This document shows positions 6,741 to 28,010 of a stretch of DNA of 28,010 nucleotides, in pieces. Position 1 is the first letter of the stretch, and each line of letters opens with the position of its first letter. The notes under the pieces were generated by a model. It worked only from the letters and a program-made list of their open reading frames with translations, did not search any database and was not told the DNA's origin. The stretch is from a bacterium (lineage in GTDB: Bacteria > Patescibacteriota > Minisyncoccia > JACQLN01): assembly GCA_030697855.1 (NCBI GenBank), contig JAUYOU010000053.1, positions 1 to 28,010 of the forward strand. Direction: 5' to 3'. The position numbers and the translations under genes were made by a program.

Positions 6741-7874
6741 TTAAAGCGTTAAGCGATATAAACGCCCGTCTATTTTATTTATAAAGAATAAATATGTTTC
6801 GTCGGGCATAACAAATAAGTTTGAGGCATCAAAAGACCCCTCTATTATTTTTTGTATTTGCCCTGTTTCGGTGTTTATTCTAATGATTTCTTCTCCTTCT
6901 GAACGAACTCTCCTTTTGTAGTAGTCGTCGGGCATTATAAAGTTATCGGGATCGGTAACTTTAAACACAGAACATAATATTACCCTCTCGTCCTGTGTCC
7001 ATGTACATTTTTCGGGCAAGGAAAATAAATTAATGTTACTTTCTGTTTTTTTATCTAAATTTATACTAGAAAGTTTTAAACTGCGCCCTCCAGAATCTGT
7101 TTTGGAAACAAGGATTCTTTTTCCCGAAGGCGAAAAACTAGTGGTTAAGCCATATTCTCCACCCAAGACCCTAGTTGTTTTTTTGTTTTTAATATTAAGC
7201 AGGTAAACTATTCCAGTAGCAAAACCAGAAGGCTTTGTTTCTATAGATATATTATCCGCATTAACCCACTTTATTTTAATGTCCGGAATTTTTGTTGGGA
7301 TAATATCTTTATTTTTTGAAAACTCATCGTAATTTAAGGCTATTTTTTTGCCATTTCTATCGGAATAAACAATAGCCACCTCTTTGTTGCTGTTACCCAA
7401 CGAAACATCTTCTGTTTCTTGAGACAGGGTTTTTAAGGTTTTACTATTAACGTCGTATATTATAAATCTGGTAGCACCCGAAGCTAAACTATATTTAAAA
7501 GATAAAAGTTCGCCCGAACTAGAAACATTAACTTCGCCTATTCTATCTACTGCTACTAAGCCAATTTTGTTTTTGCCACCTCCATTTAAGCTAATTTGAT
7601 TTATACTGCCATCCCAAGCGGCATAAACAATCTTGCTTACCCCAGCTTCTTTGTCGGTTGTGTTAAGCCCAGCGCCTAAAACAGCCTCATCTGTTATAGG
7701 AATTAATCTTTCTTTGGCGTTTGGGGTTAATTCTCCTCCTAATAATTCTTCGTTGGTTGTTACTGGAGAAGTTTCTACGGTTTTTTTAAAGAAAAAATAA
7801 TATATACCAAAACCTATTAAGGTTAAGCCTAAAATTACGGCTAAAATTATTAATATTTTTTTTGATCTCGTCAT
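6741..7874 (-). CDS. Single-TM anchored exported protein, probable beta-propeller/TolB-like fold
   Basis: N-terminal TM (ILIILAVILGLTLIGFGIYYFFF); repeated beta-rich segments (FSPSGKRILVS, WTQDERVILC); conserved Cys pair. Confidence 0.6.
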   Translation of the reverse strand: MTRSKKILIILAVILGLTLIGFGIYYFFFKKTVETSPVTTNEELLGGELTPNAKERLIPITDEAVLGAGLNTTDKEAGVSKIVYAAWDGSINQISLNGGGKNKIGLVAVDRIGEVNVSSSGELLSFKYSLASGATRFIIYDVNSKTLKTLSQETEDVSLGNSNKEVAIVYSDRNGKKIALNYDEFSKNKDIIPTKIPDIKIKWVNADNISIETKPSGFATGIVYLLNIKNKKTTRVLGGEYGLTTSFSPSGKRILVSKTDSGGRSLKLSSINLDKKTESNINLFSLPEKCTWTQDERVILCSVFKVTDPDNFIMPDDYYKRRVRSEGEEIIRINTETGQIQKIIEGSFDASNLFVMPDETYLFFINKIDGRLYRLTL

Positions 7875-23590: not shown

Positions 23591-24709
23591 TTGTTTTTAA
23601 GTTTTTCTTTATCTAAAAAACTGGTCTACACATCAGTTTTTTTGTTTATTTCACTTTTTACATCTATTTTATTATTTTCTGGTAATAATTCTGCCAGTCT
23701 AGATTCGGATAATAAAAATATTGTAGAAGAAATAGATACGGAAGACGAAAGTTTTATTAAAAAAATAATACCTCAAGAATCTCCAGTTACTTCGGCTATT
23801 CTTTTTGCTGGTAATTTAGAAAGTAAACTTAGCGGAATTTTTCGAGGAACAAATACAATTAATGCCTTAGGTGGTCCAGATGAAAGTTCTGTTGGTTTAG
23901 AAACTGTAGGCAATGCTTTAGTAGCTCAAGGTTCGGTGCTAGCCATAATTCCGGCGAGTGCAGAAAGTTCTGTTTCAGATGGAAATATACTTACTTACGA
24001 AGTTGAAGCTGGGGATAGCTTAGAATCTATAGCTGATGATTTTGGAATTTCTGTGGATACTTTGCTTAGTGCAAATAATTTACCTAAAGGGACTAAATTA
24101 AAGATTGGCGATAAAATTTCTATTTTGCCGGTTGACGGTGTGCGTCACACAGTAAAACTTGGAGATACCATTAAATCTATAGCTATAAAATACAATGCCG
24201 ATGAAGCTAGAATACTAGCTTTTAACGGTTTACCTGATGATGGCAGAATTGTTACGGGCCAAACTTTAACAATTCCTGGTGGAGAGTTTCATGTGCCAAT
24301 CAGCACAAAATATGCTCCAGCTCAAAGCCCTTCTCCTGATAGTTTGCCAAATATTGCTGGTTATTATGGACGCCCATCTAATGGGCGTGTAACTTTCGGT
24401 TTACATAGATTTAATGCTGTAGATATTGGTGGTCACGAATGGTGCAATACACCGCTTTATGCTTCGGCCGCAGGTACGGTTATTACAGCTGATGCTCAGG
24501 GCTGGAATGGAGGTTATGGCAGGTATATAAAAATTTCGCACGATAATGGCACCATTACTTTGTATGCTCACGCTTCGCAATTATTAATTGGTGAAGGCGT
24601 TAAAGTTAAAAAAGGCCAAACAATTGCCTTGATGGGTTCTACTGGCAATGCTACTGGTTGCCATGTTCACTTTGAAATTAGAGGCGCCAAAAATCCTTTT
24701 ACGAATTAA
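23591..24709 (+). CDS. LysM-LysM-M23 peptidoglycan endopeptidase
   Basis: N-terminal TM; two LysM repeats (YEVEAGDSLESIA, HTVKLGDTIKSIA); M23 motifs GLHRFNAVDIG, TLYAH and GSTGNATGCHVHFEIR. The start codon is uncertain. Confidence 0.92.
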   Translation: MFLSFSLSKKLVYTSVFLFISLFTSILLFSGNNSASLDSDNKNIVEEIDTEDESFIKKIIPQESPVTSAILFAGNLESKLSGIFRGTNTINALGGPDESSVGLETVGNALVAQGSVLAIIPASAESSVSDGNILTYEVEAGDSLESIADDFGISVDTLLSANNLPKGTKLKIGDKISILPVDGVRHTVKLGDTIKSIAIKYNADEARILAFNGLPDDGRIVTGQTLTIPGGEFHVPISTKYAPAQSPSPDSLPNIAGYYGRPSNGRVTFGLHRFNAVDIGGHEWCNTPLYASAAGTVITADAQGWNGGYGRYIKISHDNGTITLYAHASQLLIGEGVKVKKGQTIALMGSTGNATGCHVHFEIRGAKNPFTN

Positions 24710-24731
24710 ATAAAATTTTAATATAAAGTAA

Positions 24732-24756
24732 AAATCCCCGACATCGTCGGGGATTT
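24732..24756. terminator. Probable bidirectional terminator between convergent genes
   Basis: 11-bp stem aaatccccgac / gtcggggattt with a 3-nt loop and A/T flanks. Confidence 0.8.
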
Positions 24757-26310: not shown

Positions 26311-26382
26311 GCCCCGCTAATGAATTTCCAATTTTTTTTCGCCTTTCCTTCGGAAAGGATTTTGGAAATTCTACTACGGGGC
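26311..26382. repeat. REP/MITE-like element with internal hairpin
   Basis: gccccgctaatgaatttccaa / ttggaaattctactacggggc (16/21 inverted), with an internal stem cctttcc-ttc-ggaaagg (26342-26358). Confidence 0.75.
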
Positions 26383-26399
26383 ATAGTTATAATTTTGAG

Positions 26400-26750
26400 T
26401 TATGAGTGATTCGCGCAGTTTCTGGCAGACGGATTAACACGCAAACGTTCTTCGTTTATAACTTCTCCACATTTTTCGCAAATTCCAAAAGAGTTGTTTT
26501 TTATTTTTTCTAGCGCGTCGTTAATATCTTGAAGTCTTGTTTCTAAACTATGCTCCATAGGTAGGCGTGTTGCGTATTCAGTTACTTCTTGTGAATTCTC
26601 GTCCCAGCCTTCACCTAAATTTTCGTAATTAGAATCCCACTCTCCTTTTACATTCTTATCTGGATGAGCAAAGGAAGTTAACTCTTCGGTTAAAGCCTTT
26701 TTTTCTTTTTCTAGTAGAGAACCTAATTCTCTTATTAGTTCCTGATTCAT
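26400..26750 (-). CDS. TraR/DksA C4-type zinc finger protein
   Basis: Coiled coil, LETRLQDINDALEKI, and FGICEKCGEVINEERLRVNPSARNCANH. Confidence 0.9.
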   Translation of the reverse strand: MNQELIRELGSLLEKEKKALTEELTSFAHPDKNVKGEWDSNYENLGEGWDENSQEVTEYATRLPMEHSLETRLQDINDALEKIKNNSFGICEKCGEVINEERLRVNPSARNCANHS

Positions 26751-26756
26751 TTATAC

Positions 26757-26762
26757 ATTATA
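26757..26762 (-). promoter_or_regulatory. -10 element giving a probably leaderless dksA-like mRNA
   Basis: TATAAT, followed by 6 nt and ATG at 26750. Confidence 0.5.
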
Positions 26763-26878
26763 TTTTATTAACCTAAATATGAAAAGCTGACTTGCCATCT
26801 TTAAAACATTGTGCTTATATACACGAATACTGGATATGGATTGAACCTTATAAATTAACCCTAACAAGGAGCTTCTAC

Positions 26879-27784
26879 ATGAAGCGTCTCATTTTTATAG
26901 CTTTTCTAGTGATTTTCACAGTTTTACCTAAGGAATCTTCTGCGTTTGTTGCTAGAGGTGATTCCGTCTATTTCGACGGATATATGAGCTGGGATTATAA
27001 ATATCAGTGGGAAAACACTGTTACCAGCAATCACCTAGCTTTCGAAAGACTCTGGATTAATGCTGCTAAGAATATCAGCGATTCTAGTCGTTCGTATTTG
27101 TATGTTTCTACGTCCTTACTCCGTGGGAATATAGAAGTTCAGGAAGGAAGTCTCAATCTGATTCAGCCATTTAAGCGGATTGATAAAATTACTGCTGGAC
27201 GTTTTGTTCCGCCTTTTGCTAGAGAATGGTCCGAAAAAAGTTTAGACCAACTGAACTTACCCGGTGGATATTCCGTTATTTACGATCAGTTGGTTTATGC
27301 TGATGACGGCATTCAGATGGATTTTCATAAGAAAAGATTATATGTATCGCTAGGATCTTTTCTGGGTGAACGCAGTGGTGGTCATGTTCGCGAACAAAAA
27401 GATGGCAAACTTCATTCATACGCCAAAGTTATTTTGACTTTACCATCTTCGGTTGATCTTGGCGGAAGTTACAGATACAGCCGTACCAGAAATAATCTCT
27501 GGGCAGCATGGGCTAAGTGGGGATATTCCGGAAAGAATATTTCTGCCGAATTAGTCGGGTTTGGAAAAGACGTTCAGTGGTTCGTAAACTACGGCCAAAA
27601 AATCGCACCTCATTTTTTAATTACTGTGAGGTACGAGGATCTGAAATATCAACCTAATCGATATACTTCCGGTGTCAGGTTTTATACTAGGCACGTTGAT
27701 GTTAAAGCTGCTTTCTTTTCTTCGGGGGAACTTGCAAGTAGTCCTCTAAGATGGGGGCAAGCAGAAGTGTTGTTTAGATTCTGA
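26879..27784 (+). CDS. Putative outer-membrane-type beta-barrel porin (OprO/OprP-like)
   Basis: AAGGAG RBS at 26866-26871; signal peptide (ESSA|F); ITAGRFVPPFAREWSEKSLDQL and DDGIQMDF motifs; alternating aromatic strands; C-terminal QAEVLFRF. Confidence 0.65.
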   Translation: MKRLIFIAFLVIFTVLPKESSAFVARGDSVYFDGYMSWDYKYQWENTVTSNHLAFERLWINAAKNISDSSRSYLYVSTSLLRGNIEVQEGSLNLIQPFKRIDKITAGRFVPPFAREWSEKSLDQLNLPGGYSVIYDQLVYADDGIQMDFHKKRLYVSLGSFLGERSGGHVREQKDGKLHSYAKVILTLPSSVDLGGSYRYSRTRNNLWAAWAKWGYSGKNISAELVGFGKDVQWFVNYGQKIAPHFLITVRYEDLKYQPNRYTSGVRFYTRHVDVKAAFFSSGELASSPLRWGQAEVLFRF

Positions 27785-27801
27785 AATTGTTCCAAAAAAA
27801 T

Positions 27802-27834
27802 AATCCGCGTTCTGCAAAGAGCGCGGATTTTTAT
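27802..27834 (+). terminator. Intrinsic terminator after the porin-like gene
   Basis: aatccgcgttct-GCAA-agagcgcggatt (one G-U pair) followed by a T-rich tract. Confidence 0.85.
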
Positions 27835-27887
27835 TTGCCAAATTTATTTAATATTTTTTTAAGTCTATAAATTTTAAATTTGTCATA

Positions 27888-27997
27888 CCCCGTACTAAAT
27901 CCCGATCATTTATTTTCACTCATAATTTTAATTAGCGAATGCGCCTTCGGCTTATAATATTTTACTCAGTTGTTTTAGTGGTTGGATTAGGGCGGGG
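27888..27997. repeat. Third, more degenerate cccc-gta REP-like element
   Basis: ccccgtactaaatcc (27888-27902) and ggattagggcgggg (27984-27997) form an imperfect inverted pair. Confidence 0.5.
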
Positions 27998-28010
27998 TTA
28001 TTGTTTACAT

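What the first reader, a model, noticed from the sequence alone, without database searches (positions are those of the whole stretch)
26879..27834. Outer-membrane-type beta-barrel porin gene in an apparently monoderm CPR genome
Seen: the 301-aa protein has a cleavable signal peptide, amphipathic aromatic-rich strands, a GRFVPPFAREW motif like the GQFKxPFxxE motif of OprO/OprP porins, and a terminal Phe (QAEVLFRF) typical of BamA substrates. The gene has its own canonical AAGGAG RBS and GCAA-loop terminator, and REP-like elements lie on both sides (26311, 27888). A spot count suggests higher GC (25/60 on one line versus 18/60 in dnaN). Established: Patescibacteria are generally considered to lack an outer membrane and BAM. 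Inference: it may be a horizontally acquired porin, or a barrel delivered to a host membrane, which is provocative next to a T4SS-like cluster.
Basis: partly seen in the sequence, partly recalled or inferred. Interest (0 to 1): 0.7.

Follow-up and report, generated by a model that had tools for sequence, protein, structure and literature searches.

The report
Porin-fold barrel in single-membrane bacterium
A tiny groundwater bacterium from a group described as having one membrane, whose near-complete genome shows no outer-membrane assembly genes, keeps a gene for an exported protein confidently predicted to fold like a Gram-negative outer-membrane porin, so which membrane it sits in is an open, testable question.

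Summary
Window 26879-27784 (+) encodes a 301-aa protein with a Sec-type signal peptide, the GRFVPPFAREW motif, a C-terminal ...EVLFRF, an AAGGAG ribosome-binding site and a 12-bp GCAA-loop terminator.

With a 30-sequence alignment AlphaFold2 gives a 16-stranded barrel (pLDDT 88.4, pTM 0.80). Its best structural match is OprP (Z 24.5, 272 residues), followed by general porins (Z 20-22). A trimer is predicted (0.79; best control 0.01). No Pfam, NCBIfam or PDB sequence match exists.

The family has 27 clusters among 1.8 billion representatives. Every member I could place lies in Patescibacteria. The gene is not an assembly artefact:
- An independent contig spans the junction.
- Six of seven genus-mates carry it, with the same neighbours in every locus inspected.

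The genome (98.8% complete) and seven genus-mates show no Omp85/BamA. The genome also lacks LptD, LpxC, secretin, TolC-type, OmpA and Porin_4 matches.

The barrel diverges 5-10 times faster than its neighbours at protein level. The gene's GC is only about one SD above the genome mean, so recent transfer is not supported. There is no conserved link to the T4SS-like cluster.

Where the barrel sits is unresolved. This scan's earlier, unchecked notes report similar porin-like families in other Patescibacteria genomes. I found no published description.

The parts
26866..26871 (+). Ribosome-binding site AAGGAG, 7 nt upstream of the ATG
   Evidence: Read directly from the sequence
26879..27784 (+). 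Coding sequence of the 301-aa porin-fold barrel protein (P0001), stop codon included
   Evidence: ORF and translation. AF2 model with 16 strands, pLDDT 88.4. Best structural match OprP, Z 24.5.
26879..26944 (+). Signal peptide (residues 1-22, MKRLIFIAFLVIFTVLPKESSA), with predicted SPase I cleavage before F23
   Evidence: Sequence pattern and its conservation in homologues. Helix at residues 2-15 and low pLDDT at 16-26 in the model. Cleavage itself is inferred.
27197..27292 (+). End of strand 5 (GRF) and the 29-residue loop between strands 5 and 6 (GRFVPPFAREW...IYDQL, residues 107-138). This is the counterpart of porin loop L3 and one of the three most conserved segments in the family.
   Evidence: G107 is invariant and P111, E116, D123 are nearly invariant in 30 sequences. 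Short helices in the model. Mean pairwise identity within the genus is 0.75 against 0.60 overall. It is the only segment that hhalign aligns to a canonical Porin_O_P protein.
27362..27496 (+). Loop L4 (LGERSGGHVREQKDGKL), strands 8-9 and loop L5 (RTRNN), residues 162-206. This is a conserved charged cluster that includes R165, R171, K177, R199, R202 and R204.
   Evidence: Invariant and near-invariant columns. L4 conservation is 0.79 and L5 is 0.86. The charged positions lie on the polar face of the strands.
27752..27781 (+). Last strand, with a beta-signal-like C-terminus (WGQAEVLFRF)
   Evidence: 26 of 30 family members end in F, W or Y, mostly as Q-h-h-h-R-[FW]
27802..27839 (+). Intrinsic terminator: 12-bp stem, GCAA loop, T-run
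   Evidence: Terminator scan. Conserved in three orthologous loci.
26311..26382 (.). REP-like palindrome between the comM-like and dksA-like genes. It is context only and not adjacent to the barrel gene.
   Evidence: Inverted repeat I1. Logan contigs break here.
27884..28002 (.). REP/MITE-like element downstream of the terminator, where the contig ends
   Evidence: A 79%-identical copy lies in the opposite orientation at the same position in L001. It is a weak hairpin.

Best explanation
The gene is real, inherited vertically within its genus, and under purifying selection. It encodes a Sec-exported, signal-peptidase-cleaved protein that folds into a minimal 16-stranded porin-type barrel.

Predicted anatomy:
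- External loops are short, apart from an L3-like helical loop and a charged L4/L5 cluster.
- The conserved charged residues lie on the strand faces assigned to the lumen by hydrophobicity.
- The protein probably assembles as a trimer.

Inferred function: a passive, water-filled solute channel whose selectivity is set by the conserved L3/L4/L5 charge cluster.

The protein belongs to an unnamed family seen so far only in a few Patescibacteria lineages. Structurally it is closest to the OprP/Porin_O_P and general-porin group, but it is not detectably a sequence member of those families.

Neither this genome nor its genus-mates show Omp85/BamA, so the barrel would have to fold and insert without the cell's own BAM machinery. 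It would insert into a lipid or protein layer outside the cytoplasmic membrane.

Which layer that is remains unknown. I lean slightly towards the cell's own surface, meaning an unrecognised outer layer or lattice. A partner cell's membrane is nearly as likely.

Basis of each step: the fold and the trimer are predictions. Export, pore function, BAM-independent insertion and location are inferences.
For: Fold:
- AF2 with 30 sequences gives pLDDT 88.4 and pTM 0.80, with 16 strands.
- VIA-align against 48,161 PDB chains puts OprP (2o4v) first at Z 24.5, rmsd 3.1 A over 272 residues. Twelve further porins score Z 18-22, and Omp85-type barrels only 13-15.
- Foldseek against PDB finds OmpM1, OmpU and the Rhodobacter porin at about E 1e-11.
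- ESM Atlas porin clusters match at TM 0.78-0.83, and language-model features score 0.97, with all ten best family-bearing hits in one family or clan.

Membrane character:
- Every strand has one hydrophobic and one polar face, averaged over the family.
- The faces assigned to lipid hold 41 aliphatic and 20 aromatic residues of 87. The conserved charges lie on the polar faces.
- Connections on the loop side are longer than those on the turn side, as in porins.

Other points:
- Signal peptide and aromatic C-terminus are found across the family.
- Trimer prediction: ipSAE 0.79 against a best control of 0.01, partner pLDDT at least 78, and runs agreeing in at least 70% of contacts. In calibration this mark was reached by 20 of 30 solved homo-pairs and 1 of 23 single chains. 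The job differs from the calibration (three copies, my own alignment) and may reflect memory of solved porin trimers.
- Real gene: the order comM-dksA-barrel-Pol-beta NTase-PNPase recurs on contigs up to 384 kb. Six of seven genus-mates carry it. A contig built independently from the source run spans 26364-28010 with no differences.
- Selection: barrel dN is 0.31-0.36 against a neighbour dS of 0.65-1.0.
- No BAM or other outer-membrane marker searched. Reviews describe Patescibacteria as monoderm (PMC12857230; bioRxiv 10.1101/2021.05.31.446380).
Against: - Everything structural is prediction. No coordinates were available to me, so I could not verify that the L3-like loop sits inside the lumen or that the hydrophobic face points outward.
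- There is no expression or proteomic evidence.
- No lipid layer outside the cytoplasmic membrane is known in Patescibacteria. BAM-independent assembly of a 16-stranded barrel in a native membrane has no precedent known to me.
- The gene is rare. It was found in 1 of about 319 genera in a sample of 401 Patescibacteria genomes. That fits poorly with a core envelope component.
- The genome is a 92-contig MAG, so absence of BamA is strong but not absolute.
Confidence: 0.6

Rival explanations
1. Host-directed pore. The exported barrel is inserted into the membrane of the partner or host cell at the contact site, opening a diffusion path for nutrients. This could be a diderm host's outer membrane, perhaps assembled by the host's own BAM through the conserved C-terminal signal.
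For: - The barrel has a BAM-type C-terminal motif, conserved in 26 of 30 members, in genomes with no BamA of their own.
- Its distribution is sporadic and lineage-specific.
- It diverges 5-10 times faster than neighbouring genes, as expected for a protein at a host interface.
- Patescibacteria are described as epibionts that depend on hosts (PMC12857230).
Against: - There is no known route for an unfolded barrel to reach a host periplasm.
- The Sec signal peptide only takes the protein across the cell's own membrane.
- There is no conserved linkage to the T4SS-like cluster.
- The most conserved parts are the loops L3, L4 and L5, and the most variable parts are strands 2-4. This is not the variable-surface-loop pattern typical of exposed antigens.
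- The host of this genus is unknown.
Confidence: 0.25
2. Assembly artefact, or contamination from a diderm organism binned into the MAG.
For: The gene lies 226 bp from a contig end, between repeat elements. Its GC is slightly above the genome mean. The bin's estimated contamination is 2.3%.
Against: - An independent contig covers 26364-28010 with no differences, across the dksA-barrel junction.
- The same gene order occurs in at least six other assemblies from different studies, on contigs of 74-384 kb.
- Six of seven genus-mates carry the gene.
- No homologue from a diderm was found among 1.8 billion cluster representatives.
Confidence: 0.02
3. Not a membrane channel. The protein is a secreted or wall-associated soluble beta-rich protein, such as a binding protein or adhesin, that the predictors force into a porin shape.
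For: - There is no sequence match to any porin family.
- Monoderm organisms are not expected to make such barrels.
Against: - Two predictors and a feature-based search agree: AF2 at pLDDT 88.4, the Atlas's own ESM model at pTM 0.73, and language-model features at 0.97.
- All 16 strands alternate, with one face strongly hydrophobic and aromatic-rich. A 16-stranded barrel is too wide to bury that face inside.
- The match to OprP stands well above non-porin barrels.
Confidence: 0.08
4. A recently transferred porin gene with no function in this cell.
For: GC and GC3 are slightly raised. Repeat elements are nearby. Earlier scan notes on other Patescibacteria call similar genes GC-rich inserts (unchecked).
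Against: - The reading frames are intact at one syntenic site across genus-mates whose neighbouring genes have diverged to dS 0.65-1.0.
- Barrel dN stays well below that (0.31-0.36), and the L3, L4 and L5 loops are strongly conserved.
- A second lineage keeps the gene next to infB in both a 34%-GC and a 50%-GC organism.
- No donor-like homologue was found.
Confidence: 0.05

Closest known systems
OprP / OprO phosphate-selective porins of Pseudomonas (Pfam PF07396 Porin_O_P; PDB 2o4v)
   Same: - Best structural match: Z 24.5, rmsd 3.1 A, 272 aligned residues, 17% identity.
- Nearest Atlas clusters carry Porin_O_P.
- Both are 16-stranded barrels with a signal peptide and an aromatic C-terminus, and this protein is predicted to form a trimer.
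- The strand-5/L3 motif G-[RH]-F-x-P-P-[FL] aligns with a canonical Porin_O_P protein.
   Different: - There is no HMM match to PF07396 at E up to 10. hhalign gives only 4% probability.
- It is about 110 residues shorter, with much shorter external loops.
- Charges on the polar faces are balanced, 12 K/R against 12 D/E, rather than an obvious arginine ladder.
- It is encoded in genomes without BamA or LPS genes.
General diffusion porins of diderm bacteria (OmpF/OmpC/OmpU, Omp-Pst1, Omp32, PorB, Rhodobacter porin)
   Same: - They match at Z 18-22 over about 250 residues and at Foldseek E 1e-9 to 1e-11.
- Shared features are 16 strands, a long third loop with short helices, conserved acidic residues in that loop (E116, D123), conserved basic residues on the wall (R199, R251, K276) and a predicted trimer.
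   Different: - Sequence identity is only 9-14%, and there is no Porin_1 or Porin_4 match.
- Loops are minimal.
- Within the genus the most conserved parts are loops L3-L5 and the most variable are strands 2-4.
- There is no outer membrane or BAM in the producer as far as the genomes show.
OmpM1 of Veillonella parvula (porin of diderm Terrabacteria, PDB 8bym/8bys)
   Same: It is the top Foldseek hit by E-value (1.3e-11, TM 0.65) and scores Z 21.1. It comes from the Terrabacteria side of the bacterial tree, where Patescibacteria are also placed (bioRxiv 10.1101/2021.05.31.446380).
   Different: OmpM has an N-terminal SLH domain that tethers the outer membrane to the wall, and this protein has none. 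The cited study states that porins and SLH domains were lost in the monoderm clade that includes CPR. The distribution seen here (one genus in the sample) does not look like an ancestral relic.
Beta-barrel arrays of the Thermotogae toga
   Same: The toga is described as two-dimensional arrays of beta-barrel proteins in an envelope layer (abstract of bioRxiv 10.1101/2022.09.22.508938, seen). It is a possible model for how a porin-like trimer might form a surface layer.
   Different: Thermotoga maritima has Omp85/BamA (control list). No lattice is shown here. This is an analogy only.
Other porin-like barrel families noted by this scan in Patescibacteria (12-stranded KdgM/NanC-like and 16-stranded OprP-like)
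   Same: The same paradox is reported: exported, confidently predicted outer-membrane-type barrels from unnamed CPR-restricted families in genomes without BamA. These are AI notes and are unchecked.
   Different: No look-alike of this protein was found among the earlier findings by sequence. Whether any of those 16-stranded families is the same family as this one was not tested.

Membership tests
Porin_O_P (Pfam PF07396; OprP/OprO) | Sequence match to the family HMM above its gathering score | tested here: not met
   hmmscan of P0001 and of all 30 family members finds no PF07396 hit at E up to 1-10. A whole-genome search of 401 Patescibacteria genomes, G000 included, with PF07396 finds nothing in G000.
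Porin_O_P (Pfam PF07396; OprP/OprO) | Remote homology by profile comparison | tested here: inconclusive
   hhalign of the 30-sequence profile against one canonical Porin_O_P protein (L026) aligns only the strand-5/L3 motif. Probability is 4.3% and E is 0.0096 for this single comparison. No Porin_O_P profile was available to compare profile against profile.
Porin_O_P (Pfam PF07396; OprP/OprO) | 16-stranded barrel fold superimposable on OprP | tested here: met
   Z 24.5, rmsd 3.1 A and 272 residues against 2o4v, the top match among 48,161 chains. Atlas Porin_O_P clusters match at TM 0.80-0.81. One side is a predicted model.
Porin_O_P (Pfam PF07396; OprP/OprO) | Arginine ladder and lysine cluster that give anion (phosphate) selectivity | tested here: inconclusive
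   Conserved basic residues exist (R108, R165, K183, R199, R251, K276, plus R202 and R204 in the genus). However, the polar faces carry 12 K/R and 12 D/E. There were no coordinates to map a ladder.
Classical trimeric general porins (Porin_1/Porin_4 type) | Sequence match to PF00267 or PF13609 | tested here: not met
   There is no hit for P0001. One distant family member reaches E 0.019 to Porin_4 and one reaches 0.037 to BBP2. A whole-genome search with PF13609 finds nothing.
Classical trimeric general porins (Porin_1/Porin_4 type) | Homotrimer formed through the wall of strands 1-5 and 16 | tested here: met
   Three-copy prediction gives ipSAE 0.79 against a best control of 0.01, partner pLDDT at least 78 and runs agreeing in at least 70% of contacts. 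In calibration the mark was reached by 20 of 30 solved homo-pairs and 1 of 23 single chains. The interface residues fall mainly in 30-108 and 271-301, with a few at 143-176. This is a prediction only and may reflect memory of solved porin trimers.
Classical trimeric general porins (Porin_1/Porin_4 type) | Third loop folded into the lumen as a constriction, acidic loop facing a basic wall cluster | tested here: inconclusive
   A 29-residue loop between strands 5 and 6 has short helices and conserved E116 and D123, and conserved R/K residues lie on the polar faces of strands 9, 13 and 15. The position of the loop inside the barrel could not be inspected.
Outer-membrane proteins assembled by BAM | Cleavable signal peptide and a C-terminal beta-signal ending in an aromatic residue | tested here: met
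   The signal is MKR...SSA|F, and the C-terminus ...EVLFRF has hydrophobic residues at positions -1, -3 and -5. Of 30 members, 26 end in F, W or Y.
Outer-membrane proteins assembled by BAM | The producer encodes Omp85/BamA and has an outer membrane | tested here: not met
   - PF01103 was not found in G000 (98.8% complete) or in seven genus-mates, four of which are listed at 100% completeness.
- It is above cut-off in 0 of 401 sampled Patescibacteria genomes.
- LptD, LpxC, secretin, OEP/TolC and OmpA were not found in G000.
- The envelope itself was not observed.

The most novel reading that the evidence does not exclude
Some Patescibacteria are not plain monoderms. This genus would build a BamA-independent outer layer from self-assembling porin-type trimers, a toga-like or S-layer-like barrel lattice with or without lipid. 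That layer would act as the molecular sieve of the cell surface. The many unnamed barrel families scattered over CPR would then be variants of one overlooked envelope design.
Probability: 0.15. Interest if true: 0.92.

Novelty: new variant of a known kind. Interest (0 to 1): 0.72.

Why it matters
Porin-type barrels are regarded as a hallmark of two-membrane cells, and every classical outer membrane uses BamA to assemble them. Here a conserved, selected, confidently predicted porin occurs in genomes that show no BamA and no other outer-membrane marker searched. One of three things should then be true:
- The envelope of some CPR bacteria is not what it is assumed to be.
- A 16-stranded barrel can be assembled without BAM.
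- The pore is meant for another cell's membrane.

Each outcome bears on open questions: how ultra-small symbionts obtain nutrients, how outer membranes were lost or gained in Terrabacteria, and how barrels insert into membranes.

The protein is small (279 mature residues). It can be tested directly by expression, bilayer recording, metaproteomics and cryo-ET.

Tried and rejected
Searches that gave nothing useful:
- Sequence searches of P0001 against Pfam, NCBIfam and PDB found nothing.
- The family profile against PDB gave only chance-level RPA32 hits at E 0.4-1.
- The profile search of the 5.8-billion-protein set did not reach beyond the family.
- The search for related loci with the 30-sequence alignment failed because no stretch was conserved enough. 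The 9-sequence alignment found two named MAGs.
- For expression, no RNA holder was listed in either run search. Read laying used contigs only, so it says nothing about transcription.
- Rfam found no family at gathering threshold in the window or in three orthologous loci. Only chance-level hits appeared in the conserved downstream block. No tRNA or tmRNA was found in four orthologous loci, L001, L004, L006 and L016.
- Four full-text literature searches on CPR, Patescibacteria or Saccharibacteria with porin or beta-barrel found no description of such proteins. The CPR 'porin' mentions I read are an unrelated porin-cytochrome call and statements that porins were lost.

Weaker results and limits:
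- The first AF2 model, from nine sequences, reached only pLDDT 66.7. It was superseded by the 30-sequence model.
- Genus-mate G001 lacks the gene but is only 77% complete, so I do not count it as a loss.

Ideas rejected:
- GC as evidence of transfer: the gene is within about one SD of the genome's ORFs.
- Chimeric assembly: rejected.
- A functional link to the T4SS-like cluster: rejected for lack of conserved neighbourhood.
Full report
**What is in the sequence.**
The ORF at 26879-27784 (+) encodes 301 residues. It has the following features.
- An AAGGAG ribosome-binding site at 26866-26871, 7 nt before the ATG.
- A Sec-type signal peptide, MKR / LIFIAFLVIFTVL / PKESSA, followed by FVARGD.
- The motif GRFVPPFAREW at residues 107-117.
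- The C-terminus QAEVLFRF.
- A strong intrinsic terminator at 27802-27829, with a 12-bp stem, a GCAA loop and a T-run.

The palindrome at 26311-26382 is real, but it lies beyond the neighbouring dksA-like gene. The element at 27884-28002 is a poor hairpin. It recurs at the same site in a genus-mate in the opposite orientation at 79% identity.

The gene's GC is 40.6% against a genome value of 36.4%. That places it at the 91st percentile of crude ORFs, and its GC3 at the 85th. It is raised but not an outlier.

**What the protein is.**
Pfam, NCBIfam and PDB sequence searches return nothing. Homologues are few.
- Nine proteins, the query included, were found in the 5.8-billion-protein set, the relatives at 46-70% identity.
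- Twenty-seven clusters were found among 1.84 billion representatives.
- None of them carries a Pfam domain or an informative name.

With nine sequences AlphaFold2 gave a 16-stranded barrel at pLDDT 66.7. With 30 family members it gave pLDDT 88.4 and pTM 0.80, with all five models at 85.8 or above.

The model has 16 strands. A 29-residue helical loop lies between strands 5 and 6, and a 17-residue loop between strands 7 and 8. The other connections are very short, and those on the 'loop' side are longer than those on the 'turn' side, as in porins.

Structural comparisons agree on a porin fold.
- An exhaustive comparison with 48,161 PDB chains puts OprP first: Z 24.5, rmsd 3.1 A, 272 residues, 17% identity.
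- Twelve other porins score Z 18-22 (Omp-Pst1, OmpU, OmpT, OmpM1, DcaP, PorB, Omp32, BpsOmp38, the Rhodobacter porins, OprB and chitoporin).
- Omp85/TamA-type and 18-stranded barrels follow at 13-15.
- Foldseek, the ESM Atlas shape search (TM about 0.8 to Porin_O_P and BBP2 clusters) and a language-model feature search (0.97, ten of ten family-bearing hits in one family or clan) all agree.

Averaged over the family, every strand has one hydrophobic and one polar face. The face assigned to lipid is rich in aliphatic and aromatic residues. Almost all conserved charges lie on the polar face or in loops L3-L5.

A three-copy prediction passes its controls, with ipSAE 0.79 against a best control of 0.01, partner pLDDT at least 78 and at least 70% contact agreement. 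In calibration the mark was reached by 20 of 30 solved homo-pairs and 1 of 23 single chains. The predicted interface lies mainly on strands 1-5 and 15-16, as I recall for classical porin trimers. That job differs from its calibration and may reflect memory of solved porin trimers.

At sequence level the link to known porins stays unproven. hhalign against a canonical Porin_O_P protein aligns only the strand-5/L3 motif (ITvGRFiPPFg against LRAGHFAPPLG) at 4% probability.

**Is it really part of this genome?**
Yes. A contig built independently from the source run covers 26364-28010 without a difference, across the dksA-barrel junction. Near-identical fragments occur in a drinking-water metagenome from another study.

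The order UvrD, LysM-M23 peptidase, ComM-like ATPase, DksA/TraR zinc finger, barrel, Pol-beta-type nucleotidyltransferase, PNPase, S15 recurs on contigs of 74-384 kb from other assemblies. Two of those assemblies are named Patescibacteria group bacterium and Candidatus Yanofskybacteria.

Six of seven genus-mates have the gene, and the seventh is only 77% complete. Two of them carry more divergent forms, about 33% identical where measured, that keep the nucleotidyltransferase neighbour.

Outside the genus the gene was not found in 53 other genera of the same family, order and class. It was also not found in about 398 further genomes sampled across the phylum.

Distant family members lie in other small-genome housekeeping contexts. 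One lineage keeps the barrel beside infB in both a 34%-GC and a 50%-GC organism. Its IF-2 is 79% identical to a Patescibacteria protein and 64% identical to a Candidatus Komeilibacteria protein. Another member sits next to a TrmB-type regulator.

Nearly all members have signal peptides, and 26 of 30 end in F, W or Y.

**Does the organism lack an outer membrane?**
As far as genomes can show, yes.
- G000 (685 kb, 98.8% complete) has no match to Omp85, LptD, LpxC, secretin, OEP/TolC, OmpA or Porin_4. The positive controls ring correctly.
- None of eight genomes of the genus has Omp85.
- None of 401 sampled Patescibacteria genomes has Omp85 above cut-off.
- The literature treats Patescibacteria as monoderm and says porins were lost in the Chloroflexi/CPR clade (PMC12857230; bioRxiv 10.1101/2021.05.31.446380).

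No microscopy exists for this genus.

**How it evolves.**
Between this genome and three genus-mates the neighbouring proteins are 82-95% identical, but the barrel is only 56-61% identical.
- Neighbour genes have dS 0.65-1.0 and dN 0.03-0.10, except the dksA-like gene, which has a higher or saturated dS in several pairs.
- The barrel has dN 0.31-0.36 and near-saturated synonymous differences.

The gene is therefore constrained, since its dN is well below the neighbours' dS. It nevertheless evolves 5-10 times faster than its surroundings at protein level.

The variation is not where classical porins vary. Loops L3, L4 and L5 are the most conserved parts (0.75-0.86 mean pairwise identity), and strands 2-4 the least (0.37-0.44). 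This points to a conserved functional site formed by the L3/L4/L5 charge cluster. That cluster includes R165, R171, K177, R199, R202, R204, E116 and D123.

**Most likely mechanism.**
Shown or predicted: an exported, 16-stranded, probably trimeric porin-fold protein from a Patescibacteria-restricted family.

Inferred: it forms a passive solute channel, and it must fold without a BamA of its own.

The location is open. I slightly favour the cell's own surface. The gene stands alone with a strong ribosome-binding site and terminator in a housekeeping neighbourhood. The conserved loops also suggest a fixed function rather than an antigenic arms race.

The host-membrane reading is almost as likely, given the fast divergence, the patchy distribution and a BAM-type C-terminal signal with no BAM at home.

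Contamination, a soluble non-channel protein and a functionless recent import are each poorly supported.

**Comparison and novelty.**
The protein works like, and is shaped like, OprP and the general porins. It fails the sequence test for those families, and it fails the 'BAM-assembled outer-membrane protein' criterion of having BamA in the producer. I therefore file it as a new variant of a known kind and not as a member.

I found no paper describing such proteins in CPR. This scan's earlier notes report similar 12- and 16-stranded barrel families in other Patescibacteria genomes. Those notes are unchecked leads, and by sequence none matches this protein. They suggest the phenomenon is wider than this genus.

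Noticed in passing
G000:C74:21709-22677 (-) = L018:1210-2178 (-): A second candidate outer-membrane-type protein in the same genome. It is 322 aa with a signal-peptide-like N-terminus, no Pfam hit, and a strongly beta-amphipathic C-terminal part of about 140 residues ending ...LSFQIQRFFN. Atlas features point to OmpA-family and DUF3575 clusters (0.93-0.95), but only 4 of the ten best hits agree, so this is a lead only. Homologues occur in two genus-mates and in another family of the same order. It was not folded.
   Followed up: partly
L001:~7230-7626, L004:~7260-7690, and the matching part of L006 (downstream of the barrel gene; not in the window, whose contig ends at 28010): A non-coding block of about 430 nt is 82-87% identical among three genus-mates whose neighbouring genes differ at about half of their synonymous sites. 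It has no Rfam family, tRNA or tmRNA match. It may be an undescribed structured RNA. The block is not assembled in G000: only a 37-nt match was found.
   Followed up: partly
window 27884-28002 and L001:6960-7110: The REP/MITE-like element after the barrel's terminator lies at the same position in a genus-mate but in the opposite orientation (79% identity to the reverse complement). It is either invertible or was inserted independently.
   Followed up: partly
L026 = G366:C20:10341-14426 (ORF 1498-2724, -): One of 401 sampled Patescibacteria-labelled genomes, an unusually large one (2.0 Mb, 250 contigs), carries a canonical Porin_O_P gene (189 bits). It showed no Omp85 match in the same sample. 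This could be contamination or another porin without BamA.
   Followed up: no
L001:2534-3780, L006:3342-3877, and window 24709-24755: Between the LysM-M23 peptidase and comM-like genes, genus-mates carry toxin-antitoxin-type pairs (Gp49 + HTH_3, and YafQ/ParE + a 92-aa partner). L004 has an unannotated 162-aa ORF at that spot, and the window has only a 45-bp spacer there. This looks like a strain-variable insertion site.
   Followed up: no
window 26400-26750 (-) and its orthologues: The dksA/traR-type zinc-finger gene next to the barrel shows higher synonymous divergence in several pairs (pS 0.65-0.87) than comM or the M23 peptidase gene (0.43-0.56). This hints that dksA and the barrel share a recombination history distinct from that of the flanks.
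   Followed up: no
Locus of P0015 (JGI 3300072015, 190-kb contig; no DNA held): A distant family member sits just downstream of a divergently oriented TrmB-type regulator and a 91-aa ORF. An earlier scan note describes the same arrangement for a porin-like barrel in another Patescibacteria genome.
   Followed up: no
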